64,000 nt of DNA from Minisyncoccota bacterium (GTDB taxonomy: Bacteria; Patescibacteriota; Minisyncoccia; Phycocordibacterales; SBAW01), in assembly GCA_035546575.1 (NCBI GenBank), contig DASZWN010000001.1:212875-276874 (forward strand). Reading direction: 5' to 3'. A program made the translations under genes and the position numbers. Every line of letters begins with the position of its first letter. The first letter of the stretch is position 1. Of this stretch, positions 26,951 through 35,381 are shown in pieces. Below the pieces are notes generated by a model. The model saw only the letters and a list, made by a program, of their open reading frames with translations, made no database searches and had not been told where the DNA came from.

Positions 26951-27460
26951 ATGGACCCGGAAGCAATGCTAAAAGGGCGCATGGCCGAGGCTTTAGTTGA
27001 AGAGATGCTCAAAAAAGCGGGCAACACTGTGTATCGCTTTGGGTATGAATCTGTCATTCAAAATCTTGTACAAGCTGGCGAAGTATTTGACCGATATACA
27101 GAGGTGGGGGAGAAGCTTAGAGCCATTCCAGATTTTGTTGTAATCGACAAAAACGGTAGACCAGCGTTTGTAGAAGTAAAGTTCCGATGGAATTCTGAGA
27201 TCCACGCTGACGATGTGGCGCGCCTTGAAAAGATAGAAAAGTATTGGCGCGCCGCAGTAATCTTTGTTAATTGTATAGAAAAACCATTTTTTAGAATTTC
27301 AGAACCCCCGTATCTTTCAGCAGATAAGCTTCTGCAATTAAAACCGCTCACATCAATCTCAGGGTGGAATGTAACTCCTGAATTAATAGAAGAGTATGAA
27401 AGAGTGGCACAGAAATACTTTGCTCCGACGCTAGTTACTCCATCGCAGAAGGGAAAGTAG
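26951..27460 (+). CDS. PD-(D/E)xK nuclease superfamily protein (YraN/Mrr-cat/Hjc-like core)
   Basis: AEALVEEMLKKAGNTVYRF ... IPDFVVIDKNGRPAFVEVKFR = helix + D ... (E)VK catalytic pattern of YraN/Mrr-type endonucleases; AT-rich. Confidence 0.55.
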   Translation: MDPEAMLKGRMAEALVEEMLKKAGNTVYRFGYESVIQNLVQAGEVFDRYTEVGEKLRAIPDFVVIDKNGRPAFVEVKFRWNSEIHADDVARLEKIEKYWRAAVIFVNCIEKPFFRISEPPYLSADKLLQLKPLTSISGWNVTPELIEEYERVAQKYFAPTLVTPSQKGK

Positions 27461-27496
27461 TAAAATTCCCCGGATTTGATAGGGTAGAGACAAAAT

Positions 27497-28447
27497 ATGC
27501 TTGGAAAAGTGGAAAAAGTTGATCTACGTAAGGCGTGGCCTCATGAGGCCCTAGATTTTACACGCTGGCTTGCTGAAGAGGCAAATCTCCGCTTGCTCTC
27601 AGAAGAGCTTGGGATTGAATTGGTGCACCTTGAGACCGAGGCAGGTGTGGGACGTTACAATGTCGATATCTTGGCTGAGGAACTTGGATCAGGGAAAAAG
27701 ATTATTATTGAAAATCAACTAGAGATAACAAATCACGATCATTTGGGCAAATTGATCACTTATGCATCTGGATACGATGCAAATATGGTCATTTGGGTTG
27801 TACGGGATGCTCGCGAGGAACATAGACAAGCTATTGATTGGCTTAACGAGCATACCGACGAGAATCTCGCATTTTTCTTAGTACAGTTAGAGCTTTGGCA
27901 GATTGGGAATTCTCCTTTCGCGCCAAAATTCAATATTATTTCAAAACCTAATGATTGGGCAAAAGTGGTAAAACGTTCTTTTGAGGGAGGCGAAATAACG
28001 GAGACCAAAGCACAACAGCTTAGGTTCTGGAATGCCTTTCAAGAATATGCAAAGAAAGAGGGAGTTAATTTTAGGTTTGAAGAACCTCAACCTAAGCATT
28101 GGTTCAATATCTATCTCAGCACGCATTACGCTCTTATTTCTCTCTCCTTAAATTCTTTTGAGAGAGCAATCCGCACAGAGTTTTATATCCGCTCAAGTAA
28201 AGAACTATATACGTACCTCGAAGGACACCGCGAGACTATAGAAAAGGAGATAGGAGCAAAATTGGTGTGGATGCCACTTGAAGGGAAGAAAGCGAGTCGA
28301 ATAAAAATAGAACGTACGGGTGATATAGATGAAGAACGTAACTGGGAAGAGTATTTTGCATGGTGTTTAAAACAAGCTCAAGTATTTGCACGTGTATTTC
28401 CTAAATACATTAAGGAGTTTGATAAAAATAAGAAGTCTAGAAAATAA
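27497..28447 (+). CDS. Two-domain protein: N-terminal restriction-endonuclease-like domain (D...ENQLE) fused to C-terminal DUF4268
   Basis: GRYNVDILAEE...KKIIIENQLEITNHDHLGKLITYA then QQLRFWNAFQEYAKK...HWFNIYL...IKIERTGDIDEERNWEEYFAWCL matching DUF4268 pattern. Confidence 0.6.
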   Translation: MLGKVEKVDLRKAWPHEALDFTRWLAEEANLRLLSEELGIELVHLETEAGVGRYNVDILAEELGSGKKIIIENQLEITNHDHLGKLITYASGYDANMVIWVVRDAREEHRQAIDWLNEHTDENLAFFLVQLELWQIGNSPFAPKFNIISKPNDWAKVVKRSFEGGEITETKAQQLRFWNAFQEYAKKEGVNFRFEEPQPKHWFNIYLSTHYALISLSLNSFERAIRTEFYIRSSKELYTYLEGHRETIEKEIGAKLVWMPLEGKKASRIKIERTGDIDEERNWEEYFAWCLKQAQVFARVFPKYIKEFDKNKKSRK

Positions 28448-28995
28448 TGGACTTGCTAAAGAAGACCGGCACACATAGTGATAATCGAAGGAATGACAAC
28501 GCGGACAAGAAACAGCTTTTCCCCAAGGAAAAGCATCCGCATACTGCGAGCTACCATAAAGAACAGTGGGCTTTTATCTCTGACACCGGCTTGCGTGAGA
28601 ATATTGCTTACCAGATGCAGTACCTGGAGTTTTTAATTAACCTCTACAATGACTATCAGCTCTATCTCACACTCGAGTCTCTGCTATGCAAAGACATACT
28701 CGCCACAGTGGGCGGGGTAGTGGAGGCAGCACTTTTTGACATGCTCCAAGATGCCAAGACAAAAGCCGGTATGCCGATGGGTACAAGGACTGACTTCACC
28801 GCCCTCCTAGGGGAGGCGTATCACAGCTTTAACTTTATAGACAAAGATATGTGGCACTACTTCCACGAGCTGCGCAAAGTCCGCAATTACGTACACCTAA
28901 AAGCCGCTGATTTCCAAGAGCATACGGCCTATACAGTGGAAGAGGCCAACGAAGCCATAAAAAAGCTCGAACAGTTTCGGCAGCAATTTGTGTAG
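28447..28995 (+). CDS. Hypothetical protein (182 aa), start overlaps stop of upstream DUF4268 gene
   Basis: TAATGG overlap (operon with 27497..28447); no motif. Confidence 0.5.
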   Translation: MDLLKKTGTHSDNRRNDNADKKQLFPKEKHPHTASYHKEQWAFISDTGLRENIAYQMQYLEFLINLYNDYQLYLTLESLLCKDILATVGGVVEAALFDMLQDAKTKAGMPMGTRTDFTALLGEAYHSFNFIDKDMWHYFHELRKVRNYVHLKAADFQEHTAYTVEEANEAIKKLEQFRQQFV

Positions 28996-29058
28996 CGAAA
29001 AAACTCTGCCGGTGCTAGGCTAAATTCAAATTCCAAGCGTCCCATCCGATTTCCAAGT

Positions 29059-30690
29059 TTGAACCATATGAAAATCTCTAGAATAAAAGTAAAAAACTTT
29101 CGCTCTGTTAAGGAGGTAGAGATTACACCTTCGGACTTCAATGTTTTTGTTGGACAAAACAACCACGGTAAGACGAACTTCTTTGAGGCGTTAAACTGGT
29201 TTTTTAAAGGCCCCACCAAGGGCGAGGGACTTGATGTCATTCGCTATCGCGGTGCCAGTGAAGACGACGAAGTGATGGTTGAGGTTGAATTTTCCGGTGC
29301 ACAAGAGGGAGCACAGAAGATGAAGAATGAAGCGAACAAGACAAAAATCCTGGGCGTTGTCGGTGAAAGCGACACTATAACCGTGGTGCGTAGCAGTGCC
29401 ACAGATGCAAAAAAGCGGGTACTCTTAATCAATGGAGATGTGAAGAAAAATCCCACTGGATTTGATACTGCGCTCAATGATTTCTTGCCGTCATTTGAGT
29501 ACGTTAGTACACTGGCTAGTCCGCTTGACACCGTCAAGTACAAATCCAACACACCGATAGCGAACATGCTTTCGGGAGTACTATCGGCCATTCTTGAGCA
29601 AGACGAGAAATATGCTGAGTTCAAGAAGAAGTTTGATGAACTTTTTACCGATCCGGGTTCACGCGTCCACGTTGAACTCAATAAACTTAGTGGCGAAGTA
29701 AAGGCGTACCTTGTAAAACAGTTTCCTGACTGCGAAAAAGTGGTGTTCAGCGTTACAGCCCCTCTGTTTGAAGACCTCCTCAAGAGCTTTGACGCTGAGA
29801 TAGATGATGGCGTTTACACAACTGCGAGTGAAAAAGGAGACGGTATGCAGCGCGCGTTAATGCTCGCTATCATACAAACGTATGCCGATTTCCGACGCGA
29901 GCACGAAGAAACCAGCAAATACTTCCTTTTCTTCATTGACGAGGGAGAGCTTCATTTGCACCCGACGGCTCAAAGAAAACTCAAAAACGCCCTGTTTGAT
30001 CTTGCTCAGGGAGGTGATCAAATATTTCTCAATACCCATTCCTCCGTGCTTGTCTCTGAGGAAGCCGAGGGCCAGACAATTTATAAGGTGGAAAAAATGG
30101 ATAAACAGACGAGCATTATGCCCATCAAGACAGAAGAAAAGCCAAGTGTGGTGTACGAATTACTTGGCGGTAGCCCGGCAGATCTACTATTGCCGAGCAA
30201 CTTTCTAATCGTGGAGGGTAAAAGTGAGTATGAGTTTATTTCCCGTGTTACGTCACGTTTTTATAGCGGTCAAAAGCAAATACAGGTTATTTACGCGGAG
30301 GGCGACCACGGACGCCAGCGCGAATCAATGGACAGTATCAATAAGGCTTTTGTACCTCTTCATGCCAGTCCTGTCTACAAAGAACGGCTGGTGATCCTGT
30401 GCGATACACCGAACCGCACACGCACAGCTGACTTCGACGCCTTCAAGAGGGCATACAGCTATCTAGAGACGAACGAACAACTTTTTGTCATCCCCAATGA
30501 GCGTCTCGAAGAATACTATCCGGCGCCCTGGAAGAAGACTGTAGCGGAGAGCCAAGCCATGAACGGAGAAAAGAACAGGAAGCTTGATCTTGCCCGAGAA
30601 GTAGGAAGCAGCATCACAAAAGAGCAGTTTGAATCCGAAATGAGCATTATTTATGGTGCTCTTAAAGCATGTTGGAATAAGGCGTATTAA
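29059..30690 (+). CDS. OLD-family / AAA_15-type ABC ATPase with C-terminal Toprim-like domain (GajA/AriAB/class-1-OLD-like)
   Basis: MKISRIKVKNFRSV..FNVFVGQNNHGKTNFFEAL (Walker A), EKGDGMQRALMLA (signature), FLFFIDEGELHLHP (Walker B), LNTHSS (H-loop), C-terminal NFLIVEGKSEYEFI (Toprim Glu) and acidic patch LVILCDTP...ADFD. Confidence 0.65.
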   Translation: MNHMKISRIKVKNFRSVKEVEITPSDFNVFVGQNNHGKTNFFEALNWFFKGPTKGEGLDVIRYRGASEDDEVMVEVEFSGAQEGAQKMKNEANKTKILGVVGESDTITVVRSSATDAKKRVLLINGDVKKNPTGFDTALNDFLPSFEYVSTLASPLDTVKYKSNTPIANMLSGVLSAILEQDEKYAEFKKKFDELFTDPGSRVHVELNKLSGEVKAYLVKQFPDCEKVVFSVTAPLFEDLLKSFDAEIDDGVYTTASEKGDGMQRALMLAIIQTYADFRREHEETSKYFLFFIDEGELHLHPTAQRKLKNALFDLAQGGDQIFLNTHSSVLVSEEAEGQTIYKVEKMDKQTSIMPIKTEEKPSVVYELLGGSPADLLLPSNFLIVEGKSEYEFISRVTSRFYSGQKQIQVIYAEGDHGRQRESMDSINKAFVPLHASPVYKERLVILCDTPNRTRTADFDAFKRAYSYLETNEQLFVIPNERLEEYYPAPWKKTVAESQAMNGEKNRKLDLAREVGSSITKEQFESEMSIIYGALKACWNKAY

Positions 30691-30695
30691 AGGTC

Positions 30696-31964
30696 ATGGA
30701 TAAGAAAAAACTTAAAAAAATATTGAATGAAACAAAAGCCTGGTCAAATCAGTCTGACAGTCTTGTCGCTGTTCAAAAAACAGGAGGTGGATTAGAGAAG
30801 GATGTCCAAACAGCATTGGGTTGGAAAGGAGGTCGTGTCGTCTACGACCGTGTTAGAGGTTATAAAGTGCAAGTGGATGCAGCCTACCCAGACGTAAGTA
30901 GGCCTGAGGTGGTTGTATCTGTTACCTACACTGATCCGGACTTACGAGGTCATAGCAATGAAAATAAATTGCATCTGAAAGTGGGAGAGCTTGCCTTACT
31001 AAAATTTGCGCACCCTCATATAAAAGTCATTTTAGTTCTTGGAGGCTCTCAAGAGGCTTGGCTTGCCTATGTACTTAAGGCATTTGAATATTTTTTCGAC
31101 GAAGTAATTTGTCTATGGAGCGAGAACGGATTAGCTCGTCTAGCGGTTATTAAAGAAAATCACAAATCGGTAAAATTGAAACACGTCGATTTTTGGGAAC
31201 AGCTCAATATTGAATGGGGGAAAATTAAATTCTACACAGAAGCAGATTTTGTTATTCCCCACAGTCTCTTTCGATACAAGACGCTTGATGACTTTAGGAG
31301 CCAAAAACCAAAAGTTTTCCATCCTTCGTTAATAAAAAATGAAGTAGCCCGTCTATGTATGCAGAGGTCGAAAGATTATAGCGGTACCGAATGGGATTCA
31401 TACATCCAAGACCGATGGCATAACATTGAAATGTCGCGAAATTACTTTAACCCAATGGAGGCGTTGATAGAGATTTTGCTTACAGATTCCAAGTTAAAAT
31501 TTGAAGGAGGTGTGGCGCGAGATATTCCAGTTCCATCGTTTCTACACCAGCTTGGAATGAAGGGGACTCGTGTCTCGGAAGATTTTGTCCTTTTTTCCAA
31601 GAAGCTCAACAAGAAAGTTTATATTCAATGTAAATCATCTGGTGGCGGAAGAGAGCAACACGGTAAAAACATTCAAAATCGCACAAAAGAACAAATTACA
31701 CGTAGTATTCTATACAGAAGTTCGGTCAAAGAAGGAAAAATGTACCTAGAAGATAAGAATTTCTATTGGATTTCTATTTTAGATGGCAATTGGTCGATTA
31801 ACGGTAGGGAGCCTTTTAAATATATCCACATGTTGCAGATTGCTGGATACGACAAGATATACGGAGTCCAAGACTTAATCCTTGAGGATGGCTTGACTCC
31901 AAAAACAAAGAATAATCCCTTACTCGATCATCTAATAAATGATCTCGATTGTGAGTTAATTTAA
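30696..31964 (+). CDS. Putative nuclease (422 aa) with restriction-endonuclease-like PD-(D/E)xK motif in C-terminal half
   Basis: SEDFVLFSKKLNKKVYIQCKSS (D ... QCK as in Mrr-cat/type II REases); N-terminal half has a degenerate similar element (VQVDAAYPD...EVVVSVTY); 6 nt downstream of ATPase gene; converges on methyltransferase. Confidence 0.5.
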   Translation: MDKKKLKKILNETKAWSNQSDSLVAVQKTGGGLEKDVQTALGWKGGRVVYDRVRGYKVQVDAAYPDVSRPEVVVSVTYTDPDLRGHSNENKLHLKVGELALLKFAHPHIKVILVLGGSQEAWLAYVLKAFEYFFDEVICLWSENGLARLAVIKENHKSVKLKHVDFWEQLNIEWGKIKFYTEADFVIPHSLFRYKTLDDFRSQKPKVFHPSLIKNEVARLCMQRSKDYSGTEWDSYIQDRWHNIEMSRNYFNPMEALIEILLTDSKLKFEGGVARDIPVPSFLHQLGMKGTRVSEDFVLFSKKLNKKVYIQCKSSGGGREQHGKNIQNRTKEQITRSILYRSSVKEGKMYLEDKNFYWISILDGNWSINGREPFKYIHMLQIAGYDKIYGVQDLILEDGLTPKTKNNPLLDHLINDLDCELI

Positions 31965-34900
31965 GGTTTGCGAAATATTACGATAGACTCTCTGACTGGA
32001 ATTTTACCAAACTGCTTCATCTGTTGAGGACTATTTCCTTTCATTCTGGTAACGAATATTTTTTCTGCTTTGAATCCTACTTTTTCTGCAAGAAGAAGAA
32101 GTAAATGGTCAACAGGTACTACCACGCCGCCCCAGCGAGAGTTTCCGACCACAAAGGCTGCCTTCCCTCCCTTACGCATAACATCAAATATGTTTTTCAG
32201 GTTTTCCTCAAGGTCGGCAAAATAACCCGCAATCATTTGAGGTATTTTACTGTTGTTGCCATCAGTTAGTTCCATAGCAGAGATAAGCTTCTGTACTTCG
32301 GGTATAGACTCTGAAATATCGAGATCTAGGTCGCTATCCGTGTGAGATCTGAAAGTTGATCTAACAAGTGTCTTATATTCTTGTTGGCTTTTTACAAGCG
32401 ATAGTAAAGATAGCTCCGCTTTTTGTTGAGCTATATAGTTGTTTCTATTTAAATACGGAGGTGAGGTTATAACAAAGTCAATTGAATTTTTCTTAAGTTT
32501 GAATTTCTTCGCGTCTCCCAAGAATATTTGATGGCGGGAGTCGTTTCTCTTGGATTCTTTTGTCACAATTTCTATATCCTCAAGCATTTTGTTAATTTGC
32601 ACCTTAAATAACGGTAATATATCTGATCCAGGATTTACAATTTTTATATTTAATTTTTGGAGTCCTATACTATCTGGATTAAGCATGTAACGATAGTGCG
32701 ATCCATGTTTTCTAATTTGACTCACATCCTCCAATATTCCAATTAATCCCAAAAGAAGGAGATCCTGTTCCTGTCCTGAGAGAGCAGAATTGCTAATTTG
32801 ATCTTTAATTTGCTTGACTTGATTCCAGATCTGAAAAGAAAATGCCTTACTTAGGAACTCAGGGAAAAGATCTTCCTTTTTAGATTCTCTGCTTTCTACG
32901 TCTAAATTAGATAAGAACCCGTTTATTTTTTTGAAATTTTTTATATCCAAGGAAGATATTTTAATCTTGCTAACCCATATCATTAGCGGGGATATGTCAA
33001 AAGATATTGTATTAATATTTCTTTTTTTGCCTGTGAGTATGGTAGTTCCTGAACCTACAAAAGGATCAAGTATCGTAGCGTTTCTTTTTTTGTTTACGTT
33101 CAAGTGCTCTATAAGAAAATTTACCAATGGCTCAGAATAGCCTTGAGTGAAAGGAAACCACCGATGCACGGGTAGCTTTTTGTTTATTTGAAAAGTAACA
33201 GATCTGCGTAACTCCGGTTTATCTTCCTGCAGTTTTTGGTACTTCTTTATATCGATAGGGACAAATTTCTCTAGAGATGTTTTCTCACTTCCATACCTTT
33301 TTTCTTTTAAATTATTCTTAGTTGGTAAGGACTTTCTGTGAGAATTTGCAATATCATCTCTAATAAATTGATATTCTGTTGGGGAAAGTTTAAAGACTGA
33401 AGCCACAACATGGTCGAGCTTATCCCAACTCTTTTGATTTTCTGGATTTTTATATAGATCGGTAGTTATTTTTTGAGCTAAATTCCTTTGCTCACGATCA
33501 AACTGGGGCAGTCGAATTGATTGCAGATGATGTTTTAAGAGTCTAAACCAGCCACTATGGAGTTGTGTTCCGTTGTGTCGAAGTGCAAACTCCATTACTG
33601 GAGTGCTAAGTACTGCGCTCCAGAATTTTAGATCTGTTTCGCTCATTGCCCTATTGACCAAGGCGTAGCCGGAACCGATCGCAGTGTCTCCGGTTATGTC
33701 TGCCGCAAATTGAGAAGAAGGCATCATTTCTTTCACTAAGATTTTTGGTGTCTGAGGTAAATGTAAATTTTGGACTCGGCTAAACGCATACCAAGAGGCA
33801 TTTTTATCAAGATTCCTACCAGAGAGTAATTGCTTGTTAGATAATAAATATGCGTATATATTCGGAGCCATTTTTTTCAGGGTATTTTCTTCTATAACCT
33901 TAACTTTGCCCGTAGAAGAGATTTCATACGGATAAATTAACTTGTATTGTTCCCTTGAAATAAAGAGTCTTTTTATCTCCTCTCCTCCAACAAACGGCCT
34001 CAAAAGGTCTTGCTCTAAGTCTGTTTCGGCGTCTTTTTTCAACACAAAAACATCATTTTGGCCCGTGCGGAGACCTTGAAGAATGTTGGGGAATAAATGG
34101 CTAATTAAAGGAAGATTGGGGTTATTTATCTTTTGAATAATACTTTGAGCTTGATCGGTCGCTAAATTCCACGGAAACTTCTCTAAGATGTTAGTGTTTA
34201 AACTGAAAGTTTTGGATTTGTTTAGGTCGTTAGCAGATGTGATTCCTGTTGGAAAGTGGGTAACTGTAAACTTTTTTGCTGCCGGAAGCTTCGTAAAGGT
34301 AAGAACTGTGGTATAGGTTGTATGGTCTGGAAAGACTTGAGAATCTTTGAAGTCAATAATATTGAGTATTCTCACATCTTTTGCCAGTCGGGCGCATATA
34401 GCCTTTCCATATTCAGAATGCATGAATTTACTTGTGGTGATGTAACAACCAATTCCTCCATCAGTGAGACTTCTTATGGCATGTTCAATAAAAATTATAG
34501 ACAGGTCAAAATTCCCTGACGTTATATCCGGATACTTTTCCTTTATTAATCCGACGTAATTTTCTGATAGGTTCTGAGACCTAACATAGGGCGGATTTCC
34601 AATCAATATGTCGAACTTCTCGTTTTCGGATTCAGAGGAAAACAAAGACTCTTTTTGCAAAGAAAGCAGAGAATCAGAGTGTTGAATTTTAGCCTCCAGC
34701 TTAAGCGCATCATTCAATATTTTTGCAAACCTTGTCGATGTTTTGTCCACGTCATTTCCATGAAGAGATACGTCTTTACCAAAGAAGTCTCTTGCACTGG
34801 AAAGAAAAACTCCAGTACCACAAGCAATGTCTCCAACTTTCTGGACTTTTCGTCCTGTTCTGTGCAATTTATTCCAATGTTGCCACGCTGTTTGAGTAAC

Positions 34901-35152
34901 TTTGTCTGCCAGCCATTTTGGTGTGAATACTGCACCGGAATTTTTCTGTTCCTCACTAGACAACATTGATGTTCTCAGTGAAGCAAGGGCGTCTTCAATA
35001 CCGTGTATACTTATTAATTCTGAAAAGTTATTCAGATCTTGTTTGGATAGATCTTGTATTTCTCTTAACAGTCGAGGAGAAAGGCTCATCCCCTCTATAT
35101 TCGTTCGAGAGCTTTTAGGTCGATGGGGGAGGGTAGGAACGGATTTACTCAT
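31961..35152 (-). CDS. Two-module DNA methyltransferase: N-terminal gamma-class N6-adenine MTase with TaqI-like target-recognition domain, plus C-terminal second MTase module
   Basis: Module 1: VGDIACGTGVFL (motif I), ILIGNPPYV (motif IV), TaqI-C-like region (LLRPFVGGEEIKR..., WYAFSRVQNL). Module 2: ILDPFVGSGTTIL (FxGxG) and FVITSPPYLNR (SPPY). Start taken at ATG 35152 (TTG 35158 used by ORF track); TATAAT 7 nt upstream. Confidence 0.75.
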   Translation of the reverse strand: MSKSVPTLPHRPKSSRTNIEGMSLSPRLLREIQDLSKQDLNNFSELISIHGIEDALASLRTSMLSSEEQKNSGAVFTPKWLADKVTQTAWQHWNKLHRTGRKVQKVGDIACGTGVFLSSARDFFGKDVSLHGNDVDKTSTRFAKILNDALKLEAKIQHSDSLLSLQKESLFSSESENEKFDILIGNPPYVRSQNLSENYVGLIKEKYPDITSGNFDLSIIFIEHAIRSLTDGGIGCYITTSKFMHSEYGKAICARLAKDVRILNIIDFKDSQVFPDHTTYTTVLTFTKLPAAKKFTVTHFPTGITSANDLNKSKTFSLNTNILEKFPWNLATDQAQSIIQKINNPNLPLISHLFPNILQGLRTGQNDVFVLKKDAETDLEQDLLRPFVGGEEIKRLFISREQYKLIYPYEISSTGKVKVIEENTLKKMAPNIYAYLLSNKQLLSGRNLDKNASWYAFSRVQNLHLPQTPKILVKEMMPSSQFAADITGDTAIGSGYALVNRAMSETDLKFWSAVLSTPVMEFALRHNGTQLHSGWFRLLKHHLQSIRLPQFDREQRNLAQKITTDLYKNPENQKSWDKLDHVVASVFKLSPTEYQFIRDDIANSHRKSLPTKNNLKEKRYGSEKTSLEKFVPIDIKKYQKLQEDKPELRRSVTFQINKKLPVHRWFPFTQGYSEPLVNFLIEHLNVNKKRNATILDPFVGSGTTILTGKKRNINTISFDISPLMIWVSKIKISSLDIKNFKKINGFLSNLDVESRESKKEDLFPEFLSKAFSFQIWNQVKQIKDQISNSALSGQEQDLLLLGLIGILEDVSQIRKHGSHYRYMLNPDSIGLQKLNIKIVNPGSDILPLFKVQINKMLEDIEIVTKESKRNDSRHQIFLGDAKKFKLKKNSIDFVITSPPYLNRNNYIAQQKAELSLLSLVKSQQEYKTLVRSTFRSHTDSDLDLDISESIPEVQKLISAMELTDGNNSKIPQMIAGYFADLEENLKNIFDVMRKGGKAAFVVGNSRWGGVVVPVDHLLLLLAEKVGFKAEKIFVTRMKGNSPQQMKQFGKIPVRESIVIFRKP

Positions 35153-35381
35153 AGGCAAATTATACTACCTCTACCACGTTCGTGGGAACACGAAACTGTG
35201 GACATACTTAATTACTTGCTTTAGGATGAGAGGCGCATTGAACCGTCTCGGATTCTCTTTATGTATCTCCCTAAGCTTTTCGATTTCTGGTCCAATTATC
35301 GCAAACACCGTTTCAAACGAGGGGGAGATTAATCCTGCCTTAAGTCCAAGTCTGGACTTCTAAATTTGCTATACTAGTGGT

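What the first reader, a model, noticed from the sequence alone, without database searches (positions are those of the whole stretch)
31961..35152. 1063-aa double DNA methyltransferase convergent and stop-overlapping with the nuclease gene (FokI-like twin-methylase layout)
The N-terminal roughly 600 aa carry gamma-class N6-adenine motifs (DIACGTGVFL, NPPY) and a TaqI-C-like target-recognition region, as in Eco57I/type IIG/PglX-type enzymes. The C-terminal roughly 450 aa carry a second, independent methyltransferase module with DPFVGSGTT followed about 200 aa later by SPPY (alpha-class order). Two methyltransferase modules in one chain are what asymmetric-site (type IIS-like) systems need, with one module per strand. 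The stop codons of this gene and the 422-aa PD-(D/E)xK gene overlap head-on, a common restriction-modification arrangement. A TATAAT box sits 7 nt from its ATG, which suggests a leaderless or very short-leader mRNA.
Basis: partly seen in the sequence, partly recalled or inferred. Interest (0 to 1): 0.65.

Follow-up and report, generated by a model that had tools for sequence, protein, structure and literature searches.

The report
Two-in-one DNA methylase with partner nuclease
This is a mobile two-gene restriction-modification cassette, one protein carrying two complete DNA methylases and a convergent nuclease-like gene; the layout is ordinary, but the nuclease family is uncharacterised and the methylase promoter carries a conserved palindrome.

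Summary
ORF 31961-35152 (-) encodes a 1063-aa protein with two complete amino-methyltransferase modules. The N-terminal module is gamma-class, Eco57I/CamA-like (D-x3-G-x-G 108-114, NPPY 186-189). The C-terminal module is PF01555-related with motif I (696-704) before SPPY (897-900), which is alpha-like order. All four motifs are invariant in 33 fused homologues of 38-80% identity.

The convergent 422-aa gene (30696-31964) sits next to the fused methylase in 23 of 24 loci from many phyla. No third gene is conserved, and the OLD-type ATPase just upstream is not part of the unit. The best reading is a Type II system for an asymmetric site, with one methylase module per strand.

The nuclease matches nothing in Pfam, NCBIfam, PADLOC or PDB sequences. 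It has a canonical-looking E255...D296...Q311-x-K313 site and a second alpha/beta lobe whose best, non-significant, fold matches are BbvCI subunits.

New here: TATAAT-N6-ATG is conserved in five related loci, consistent with a leaderless mRNA. A palindrome, TCGTG-N4-CACGA, overlaps the -35 box and recurs only at methylase promoters in distant relatives, with no C-protein gene.

Verdict: a new member of a known kind, of modest interest.

The parts
31961..35152 (-). Fused two-module DNA methyltransferase gene (1063 aa, ATG at 35152)
   Evidence: ORF and translation. Pfam and PADLOC hits to two separate methylase families. About 40 full-length fused homologues.
33473..34966 (-). N-terminal gamma-class N6-adenine-type module with its own recognition region (residues ~63-560). 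Motif I is at 34802-34831 and NPPY at 34586-34597.
   Evidence: PF07669 at 1.4e-30 and PF02384 at 5.9e-19. PADLOC MTase_II PDLC03335 covers residues 48-557. PDB hits to CamA and M.BseCI at E~1e-23. D108, G112, G114 and N186-P-P-Y189 are invariant.
31964..33307 (-). C-terminal amino-methyltransferase module (residues ~616-1063), alpha-like order. Motif I DPFVGSGTT is at 33041-33067, the invariant insert motif RKHGSHYRY at 32687-32713 and SPPY at 32453-32464.
   Evidence: PADLOC MTase_II PDLC03224 covers residues 616-1063 over the full model, 5.1e-68. PF01555 scores 49.3 bits on the motif-I part only. The alignment to beta-class DpnA shows the permutation. The motifs are invariant in 33 homologues.
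30696..31964 (+). 422-aa conserved partner gene, the putative restriction endonuclease
   Evidence: Adjacent to the fused methylase in 23 of 24 loci. AF2 model with pLDDT 90.9. No hit in Pfam, NCBIfam, PADLOC or PDB sequences.
31449..31649 (+). Candidate canonical nuclease site in the C-terminal lobe: E255 (helix), D296 (start of a strand) and Q311-C-K313 (next strand)
   Evidence: These residues are invariant in 30 homologues. Their positions on secondary-structure elements come from the model.
30870..30968 (+). N-terminal alpha-beta-beta-beta-alpha-beta lobe with invariant D61 and GHSNENK (E89-x-K91). It is either a possible second, non-canonical active site or a recognition element.
   Evidence: Invariant residues. 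Domain model with pLDDT 89.6. The best Foldseek hits are BbvCI subunits, E 0.015-0.07, not significant.
31961..31964 (.). TTAA where the two convergent genes' stop codons overlap
   Evidence: The same 4-nt overlap occurs in L013, L006, L024, L025 and L026. Other relatives have gaps or 12-nt overlaps.
35159..35188 (-). Sigma-70-like promoter TTCCCA-N18-TATAAT. The last T of the -10 box is 7 nt before the A of the ATG, and there is no Shine-Dalgarno sequence.
   Evidence: Best promoter-like match in the region, 10 of 12. The -10 box and its distance to the ATG are conserved in five loci.
35174..35195 (-). Operator-like palindrome TTTCGTG-TTCC-CACGAAC(GTGG) overlapping the -35 box
   Evidence: Conserved block in five loci. 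The exact pattern TCGTG-N4-CACGA occurs only at methylase promoters, in 8 independent loci. CACGA is the most enriched 5-mer there.

Best explanation
The region is a horizontally acquired, two-gene Type II restriction-modification cassette. One 1063-aa polypeptide joins two complete amino-methyltransferases. The first is a gamma-class NPPY module, most likely making N6-methyladenine. The second is a permuted PF01555-type SPPY module, making N4-methylcytosine or N6-methyladenine.

Each module has its own recognition region. The inference is that each protects one strand of a non-palindromic target. The convergent 422-aa protein would be the cognate endonuclease. It has a canonical-looking E...D...QxK site in its C-terminal lobe and a second nuclease-like lobe at its N-terminus. 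It may therefore cut both strands as a single chain with two different sites, as in Class II enzymes or a single-chain counterpart of BbvCI. A FokI-style transient dimer with one active site is not excluded.

In this subgroup the methylase gene is read from a promoter whose -10 box sits 7 nt before the ATG, so the mRNA is probably leaderless. A palindrome across the -35 box probably lets a cassette-encoded protein, most plausibly the methylase itself, repress it.

Shown: domain content, motif conservation, gene pairing, promoter and palindrome conservation. Inferred: site asymmetry, strand assignment, base specificity, nuclease activity and mode, the transcription start and the repressor.
For: 1. 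Two separate full-length methylase family matches on non-overlapping halves. The nearest solved relatives of the N-module are CamA and M.BseCI.
2. Motifs I and IV of both modules are invariant across 33 fused homologues at 38-80% identity.
3. The 422-aa gene lies next to the methylase in 17 of 18 genome loci. These come from Dehalococcoidia, Sedimentisphaerales, Bacteroides, Acidobacteriota, cyanobacteria, Firmicutes and Proteobacteria. It is also there in 6 of 6 further contexts. All-against-all ORF clustering finds no third conserved gene.
4. A divergent relative (L016) keeps the rule of two methylases per nuclease, but as two separate C-type genes.
5. In L015 both genes are decayed together.
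6. The nuclease model is confident, pLDDT 90.9, with invariant E255, D296, Q311 and K313 on the expected elements. PD-(D/E)xK nucleases are over-represented among the weak fold hits.
7. Promoter and palindrome conservation.
8. GC of 34-40% against 52-55% in the flanks.
Against: - No nuclease family match reaches significance. The best Foldseek E-values are 0.015-0.04, and profile searches of Pfam and PDB are empty.
- The N-lobe lacks an acidic-x-Lys on its third strand (S75-V-T77 there), so it may be a recognition domain rather than a second active site.
- Base specificity cannot be read from motif IV. NPPY subunits can make m4C (PMC5100572), and both L016 methylases carry SPPY.
- No methylome, cleavage or transcript data exist.
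- The candidate site words show no avoidance in the 64-kb window.
Confidence: 0.8

Rival explanations
1. The 422-aa protein belongs with the upstream OLD-type ATPase (29059-30690), forming a Gabija- or PARIS-like two-gene defence system. The methylase would then be an unrelated or orphan neighbour.
For: Only 5 nt separate the OLD-type gene from the 422-aa gene, on the same strand. The 543-aa protein hits PADLOC Old at 3.4e-62 and the GajA and AriA models.
Against: No homologue of the OLD-type protein occurs in any of the 18 related genome loci, whereas the 422-aa gene follows the methylase in 17 of them. DNA homology to the 80%-identical cassette in L013 starts exactly at the ATG of the 422-aa gene. 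In L024 and L025 unrelated genes (281 aa; T5orf172) occupy the upstream position.
Confidence: 0.04
2. It is a restriction-modification system, but the nuclease has a single active site (the C-lobe). The N-lobe and helical middle only read DNA, and the enzyme cuts both strands by transient dimerisation as FokI does (Class I of PMC3017599).
For: The canonical motif is present only in the C-lobe. The N-lobe has S-x-T where (D/E)xK is expected, and its fold matches are not significant. No internal duplication is detectable.
Against: The N-lobe has the alpha-beta-beta-beta-alpha-beta topology of the nuclease fold, and its best hits are the catalytic subunits of BbvCI. D61 and GHSNENK are invariant. 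With 422 aa in total, little is left for a separate FokI-sized recognition domain.
Confidence: 0.3
3. The fused protein is a regulatory or orphan double methylase or part of a larger methylation-based defence (BREX PglX-like, MADS, Type IIG). The 422-aa gene would be an accessory rather than a classical restriction enzyme.
For: Weak hits to PglX models (NCBIfam BREX-2, 67.8 bits), PADLOC mad2 (1e-28) and Type IIG models.
Against: Scores are far below the family cut-offs (67.8 against 400, and 46.2 against 500) and cover only the generic methylase core. No BREX, MADS or helicase partner is conserved. The protein has no nuclease domain of its own, and residues 1-65 are a variable extension.
Confidence: 0.05

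Closest known systems
Type IIS systems with a fused two-domain methyltransferase (M.FokI type; from established knowledge)
   Same: One polypeptide carries two independent methylase modules, each with motif I, motif IV and its own recognition region. It lies next to a single nuclease gene. The logic is one module per strand of an asymmetric site.
   Different: M.FokI, as I recall, pairs two D12-class adenine modules. Here a gamma-class Eco57I/CamA-like module is joined to a permuted PF01555-type SPPY module. The nuclease shows no sequence or significant fold match to FokI.
Alw26I/Eco31I/Esp3I family fused methyltransferases (NCBIfam TIGR02987)
   Same: A heterologous fusion with an N-terminal adenine methylase. 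TIGR02987 hits residues 70-199.
   Different: The score is 52.6 bits against a cut-off of 353.5, so this is not a member. From my own knowledge, the second module of that family is a C5-cytosine methylase, whereas here it is an amino-methyltransferase (SPPY).
CamA (PDB 7lni) and M.BseCI (PDB 7qw5), gamma-class adenine methylases with C-terminal recognition domains
   Same: These are the nearest solved relatives of the N-module. E is about 4e-23, aligning residues 130-429 to CamA 111-411. The motif order is the same.
   Different: Both are stand-alone enzymes of about 580 aa. The window protein has a variable N-terminal extension of about 65 aa and a second methylase fused at the C-terminus.
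Beta-class N6/N4 methyltransferases of PF01555 (M.MboIIA 1g60, DpnA 5hfj, N4-cytosine methylase 8s9n)
   Same: The C-module's motif-I segment and its SPPY segment each align to these enzymes.
   Different: The order is reversed: motif I, then an insert of about 190 aa, then motif IV, a circular permutation giving alpha-like order. PDB matches are weak (E 0.04-0.4). Its real family is the stand-alone PADLOC MTase_II PDLC03224 group.
BbvCI (heterodimer) and Class II monomeric enzymes such as Mva1269I/BsmI (PMC3017599)
   Same: These nucleases serve asymmetric sites using two different catalytic sites. BbvCI subunits are the top fold matches of the N-lobe. A 422-aa chain with two alpha/beta lobes fits a single-chain version.
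   Different: The matches are not significant (E 0.015-0.07). There is no sequence similarity, and the second active site is unproven.
Methylase- or C-protein-operated promoters of restriction-modification systems (SsoII-type N-terminal regulators, C-boxes; from established knowledge)
   Same: A palindromic element overlaps the core promoter of a restriction-modification gene, and the transcript is probably leaderless, as for many C genes.
   Different: No C gene is present. The methylase N-terminal extension is not conserved where the palindrome is, so the binding protein is unknown.

Membership tests
Gamma-class N6-adenine DNA methyltransferase (Eco57I PF07669 / N6_Mtase PF02384) | HMM score above the curated cut-off | tested here: met
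   PF07669 scores 107 bits (cut-off 25.3) and PF02384 scores 69 bits (cut-off 20.4).
Gamma-class N6-adenine DNA methyltransferase (Eco57I PF07669 / N6_Mtase PF02384) | Motif order I (D/E-x3-G-x-G), then IV (NPPY), then a C-terminal recognition domain | tested here: met
   Motif I is at 108-117 and NPPY at 186-189. Residues ~300-560 align to the CamA recognition region and to PADLOC PDLC03335 up to position 580 of 607.
Beta-class N6/N4 methyltransferase (PF01555) | HMM score above the cut-off | tested here: met
   49.3 bits against 26.7. Only profile positions 159-213 of 221, the motif-I end, are matched by the best stretch.
Beta-class N6/N4 methyltransferase (PF01555) | Motif IV precedes motif I | tested here: not met
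   Motif I is at 696-704 and SPPY at 897-900. Alignment to DpnA puts the query's motif I on chain residues 130-216 and its SPPY on chain residues 14-46.
Alpha-class (D12, PF02086) adenine methyltransferase, as in both halves of M.FokI | Order motif I, recognition insert, motif IV | tested here: met
   A 192-residue insert carrying the invariant RKHGSHYRY lies between motifs I and IV.
Alpha-class (D12, PF02086) adenine methyltransferase, as in both halves of M.FokI | HMM membership of PF02086 | tested here: not met
   21.7 bits, E 1.9e-4, just below the 22-bit cut-off, and for one module only.
Type IIS/IIA restriction-modification system | Two methylase activities, fused or separate, plus an adjacent endonuclease gene | tested here: met
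   There are two modules with invariant catalytic motifs. The partner gene is conserved in 23 of 24 loci. L016 has two separate methylases.
Type IIS/IIA restriction-modification system | Non-palindromic recognition sequence, with cleavage at a fixed offset or within it | not testable with these tools
   This needs a methylome or in vitro cleavage. The CACGA(A/G) words in the promoter palindrome are only a lead.
PD-(D/E)xK nuclease superfamily (for the 422-aa protein) | Alpha-beta-beta-beta-alpha-beta core with an acidic residue at the start of strand 2 and (D/E/Q)xK on strand 3 | tested here: inconclusive
Type IIG (Eco57I/MmeI-like) bifunctional enzyme | Nuclease domain in the same chain as the methylase | tested here: not met
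   Type IIG models match only from about model position 520 onward, the methylase and recognition part. MmeI_Mtase scores 17.5 bits against a cut-off of 27. Residues 1-65 are a short variable extension.
BREX PglX | NCBIfam equivalog score and BREX partner genes | tested here: not met
   67.8 against 400 and 46.2 against 500 bits. No BREX genes are conserved nearby.

The most novel reading that the evidence does not exclude
The cassette regulates itself without a C protein. The palindrome TCGTG-N4-CACGA across the methylase promoter would contain the system's own asymmetric recognition word in both orientations. That word would be CACGAA-like in this clade and CACGAG, the BssSI/BsiI word, in the sister clade.

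Binding or methylation by the fused methylase would then set expression from a leaderless promoter. The nuclease would be a single-chain, two-active-site counterpart of heterodimeric BbvCI.

The sixth base of the word tracks the nuclease clade. That pattern fits either a change of specificity or co-evolution of an operator with its binding protein.
Probability: 0.2. Interest if true: 0.45.

Novelty: new member of a known kind. Interest (0 to 1): 0.3.

Why it matters
The layout is a textbook solution for protecting an asymmetric site, so the main finding is confirmatory.

Two things have modest practical value. First, the 422-aa protein defines a compact, widely scattered nuclease family. It has about 240 clusters at 90% identity. 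Only 77 representatives at 50% identity, about 15 of them full length, were found among 1.84 billion proteins. The family has no Pfam, NCBIfam, PADLOC or PDB relative. If it has two different active sites in one small chain, it would be a convenient source of strand-specific nicking enzymes.

Second, the conserved promoter palindrome offers a clean test of how a restriction-modification cassette without a controller protein times methylase expression.

Tried and rejected
- Profile search of the nuclease family against PDB sequences found nothing, even at E<=10.
- A Pfam scan of 30 family members and 10 distant relatives gave only noise.
- tblastn of the nuclease against 72,556 plasmids found no match.
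- hhalign of the nuclease N-lobe against its C-lobe gave probability 0.8%, so no detectable internal duplication.
- I tried to tie the nuclease to SapI/BspQI/EarI-type enzymes, recalled as about 430 aa with two sites. The primary papers are not held and no paper mentions their methylases, so this stays an untested recollection.
- A literature search for a CACGAG methylase or BssSI gene description gave only uses of the enzyme.
- Site avoidance in the window was checked: CACGAG 37 observed against 41.5 expected, CACGAA 20 against 17.7, CACGA 122 against 109. There is no signal, and 64 kb is too little sequence.
- Using motif IV to call m4C or m6A was rejected, because NPPY subunits can make m4C and both L016 enzymes carry SPPY.
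- The methylase N-terminal extension as the palindrome reader looks unlikely. The extension is unrelated in L020 and L006, which have the best palindromes.
- No CACGA element lies upstream of the nuclease gene.
- There are no Rfam families, no tRNA and no meaningful repeats flanking the island.

Full report
**Observation**

The ORF is real. The ORF listing reports 31961..35158 on the minus strand, and the ATG at 35152 gives 1063 aa.
- DIACGTGVFL at residues 108-117
- NPPY at 186-189
- DPFVGSGTT at 696-704
- SPPY at 897-900

The two convergent genes share the tetranucleotide TTAA at 31961-31964, so their stop codons overlap. TATAAT lies at 35164-35159, six bases before the ATG. Together with TTCCCA at 35188-35183 it is the best sigma-70-like match in the 6.6 kb scanned, although the total number of promoter-like hits there is no higher than in shuffles.

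**The methyltransferase**

Pfam places Eco57I (1.4e-30) and N6_Mtase (5.9e-19) on residues ~63-294, and N6_N4_Mtase (7.7e-13) on 648-722. PADLOC is more informative. Two different stand-alone Type II methylase models cover 48-557 (1.7e-62) and 616-1063 (5.1e-68, over the full model). Each half is therefore a complete enzyme with its own recognition region, not a catalytic core plus debris.

The nearest solved relatives of the first half are CamA and M.BseCI (E about 4e-23), with the alignment running through the recognition domain.

The second half matches beta-class enzymes only weakly and in permuted fashion. Its motif-I segment aligns to their C-terminal part and its SPPY segment to their N-terminal DPPY. 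The order is thus motif I, an insert of about 190 residues with an invariant RKHGSHYRY, then motif IV.

A search of 5.8 billion proteins found about 40 full-length proteins with the same fusion, from cyanobacteria, Firmicutes, Bacteroidota and many metagenomes. In an alignment of 33 of them (38-80% identity) both motif I and both motif IV are invariant.

**The partner gene**

A scan of one genome per species returned 18 loci. tblastn and all-against-all ORF clustering show a homologue of the 422-aa protein (36-84% identity) directly beside the methylase in 17 of them. It is tail-to-tail in 15 and co-directional in L009 and L016. No third gene is shared.

Six further contexts all show the pair in convergent order. 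Three were reached from nuclease homologues and three from methylase homologues.

The OLD-type ATPase that ends 5 nt before the 422-aa gene in the window (PADLOC Old, 3.4e-62) has no counterpart in any related locus. DNA homology to the 80%-identical cassette of L013 begins exactly at the ATG of the 422-aa gene. The functional unit is therefore methylase plus the 422-aa protein.

Two relatives are instructive. L016 has two separate C-type methylases, both with DPFxGxG and SPPY, followed by the nuclease homologue. The rule of two methylases per nuclease thus survives a change of module. In L015 both genes are broken by frameshifts.

**What the 422-aa protein is**

It has no hit in Pfam, NCBIfam, PADLOC or PDB sequences, alone or as a 30-sequence profile. 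One UniRef entry calls a homologue a restriction endonuclease.

The family is compact. It has about 240 clusters at 90% identity. Only 77 representatives at 50% identity, about 15 of them full length, were found among 1.84 billion proteins.

AlphaFold2 gives a confident model (pLDDT 90.9, pTM 0.88) with three parts:
- a long N-terminal helix followed by a beta-beta-beta-alpha-beta-alpha-beta lobe
- a helical middle
- a second alpha/beta lobe

In the C-lobe, invariant E255 sits in a helix, D296 at the start of a strand and Q311-C-K313 in the next strand. This is the classical PD-(D/E)xK layout.

In the N-lobe, D61 is invariant on the second strand, but the third strand carries S75-V-T77. An invariant GHSNENK (E89-x-K91) opens the following helix. 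It may be a relocated active site, as I recall for Cfr10I-type enzymes, or it may be a DNA-reading element.

Foldseek against the PDB gives no significant match. Nucleases of this fold nevertheless dominate the top of both lists:
- Whole protein: BstEII, Can2, Card1, MunI, Mus81, EcoO109I.
- N-lobe alone: four BbvCI entries (E 0.015-0.07, probability up to 0.93), Card1, arenavirus and bunyavirus endonucleases, and Avs4.

**Mechanism**

The best-supported model is a Type II system for a non-palindromic site, with one methylase module protecting each strand and a small nuclease cutting both. The classification in PMC3017599 offers two modes. One is a monomer with two catalytic sites (Class II: Mva1269I, BsmI). 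The other is a single-site enzyme that dimerises transiently (Class I: FokI).

The two nuclease-like lobes and the BbvCI resemblance lean towards the first mode, and the non-canonical N-lobe leaves the second open. Which base each module methylates cannot be told from motif IV. NPPY subunits can make m4C (PMC5100572), and both L016 enzymes carry SPPY.

**Promoter and a conserved palindrome**

In the five loci of the 74-81% subgroup, the 50 nt before the ATG are better conserved than the first 50 codons. The block reads TCCACA-N4-CGTGTTCCCACGAACGTGG-N8-TA(T/C)AATT-N5-ATG. The distance from the -10 box to the start codon is invariant, and the intervening bases are not purine-rich. This supports both the 35152 ATG and a leaderless transcript.

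The same region contains TTTCGTG-TTCC-CACGAAC, an inverted repeat across the -35 box. Distant relatives have unrelated intergenic sequence yet carry the same element:
- ATCGTG-TAAT-CACGAT in L002
- TTCGTG-TTAT-CACGAA in L003
- CTCGTG-GTAT-CACGAG in L006
- a 46-nt perfect palindrome centred on GTTCGTG-TTAA-CACGAAC in L020
- CGTG-N9-11-CTCGTG just after TATAAT in five loci, two from cultured Firmicutes and three from gut-type MAGs

The exact pattern TCGTG-N4-CACGA occurs once per locus, only at the methylase promoter, in eight independent loci. It occurs nowhere else in about 400 kb. In an unbiased scan, CACGA/TCGTG is the most enriched 5-mer in methylase-upstream regions: 16 of 20 against a background of 0.20, Bonferroni P about 8e-6, though the loci are not fully independent. 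It is absent upstream of the nuclease gene.

No controller-protein gene exists. The methylase N-terminal extension is unrelated in loci with the best palindromes.

The sixth base tracks the nuclease clade. It is CACGAA (or T) where the nuclease is at least 54% identical to the window's, and CACGAG in the 43-47% clade. CACGAG is the BssSI word (PMC9484634).

The element might therefore contain the system's own site, a speculation I rate at about 0.2. Word counts in the window show no avoidance.

**Setting**

The cassette lies at the right end of a low-GC island at about 27.0-35.3 kb, 34-48% GC against 52-58% in the flanks. The island also carries a PDC-S11/DUF4268 gene and the OLD-type gene. 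Relatives sit beside integrases, a serine recombinase, transposases, McrBC and a SAVED-domain gene. This fits a mobile defence cassette.

**Verdict**

This is a new member of a known kind: an asymmetric-site Type II restriction-modification system with a fused two-module methylase. What is not yet described in the libraries I could search is the nuclease family and the controller-less promoter palindrome. Both are modestly interesting and directly testable.

Noticed in passing
window 35174-35195 (-); also L002 ~9793, L003 ~748, L006 ~9679, L015 ~9818, L020 ~10449, L024 ~1095, L026 ~2191: The palindrome TCGTG-N4-CACGA overlaps the methylase core promoter. It is conserved across phyla although the rest of the intergenic DNA has diverged. 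There is no C-protein gene, and the binding protein is unknown. The sixth base (A/T or G) follows the nuclease clade.
   Followed up: partly
window 29059-30690 (+): A 543-aa OLD-family ATPase gene (PADLOC Old 3.4e-62; also hits GajA, AriA and the retron Eco8 effector) ends 5 nt before the nuclease gene. In L024 a 281-aa gene of unknown function, and in L025 a T5orf172/MUG113 gene, abut the nuclease start by 1-2 nt instead. In L013 there is a 250-nt intergenic region. In this subgroup the nuclease gene may often lack its own promoter and ride on a variable upstream gene.
   Followed up: partly
window 27497-28995 (+): A 316-aa DUF4268 protein matches the PADLOC candidate defence family PDC-S11 (7e-119). 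It is followed, with overlapping stop and start, by a 182-aa protein with no family hit. This may be a second small defence module in the same island.
   Followed up: no
window ~27000-35300: This is a low-GC island (34-48% against 52-58% in the flanks) holding three defence-type modules. No tRNA gene and no convincing flanking repeats were found.
   Followed up: partly
L015 10001-14373 (uncultured Alphaproteobacteria MAG): Both the fused methylase and the nuclease gene are broken into several frames, so the cassette is decayed. The promoter palindrome ATCGTG-GAAT-CACGAACGTGG is still intact.
   Followed up: partly
L016 3-3642 (Daejeonella MAG): This variant cassette has two separate C-type methylases, both with DPFxGxG and SPPY, followed co-directionally by a 36%-identical nuclease homologue. 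The gamma-class module is replaced by a second C-type enzyme.
   Followed up: partly
window 35089 against 35152 (-): A gene caller started the identical protein at Met22, giving 1042 aa (P0001, L019). The conserved TATAAT-N6-ATG and the N-terminal similarity to P0003/P0004 indicate the upstream ATG. Automated annotation probably truncates this gene because it has no Shine-Dalgarno sequence.
   Followed up: yes
P0121 (identical to window 30696-31961): NCBI labels the identical nuclease protein as coming from a 'Candidatus Paceibacterota' MAG, with a longest contig of 287 kb. The window has 52% GC and encodes chitinase, MliC, a PHA-granule protein and DUF817. The closest cassette is in a gammaproteobacterial MAG. 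The bin assignment may be wrong.
   Followed up: no
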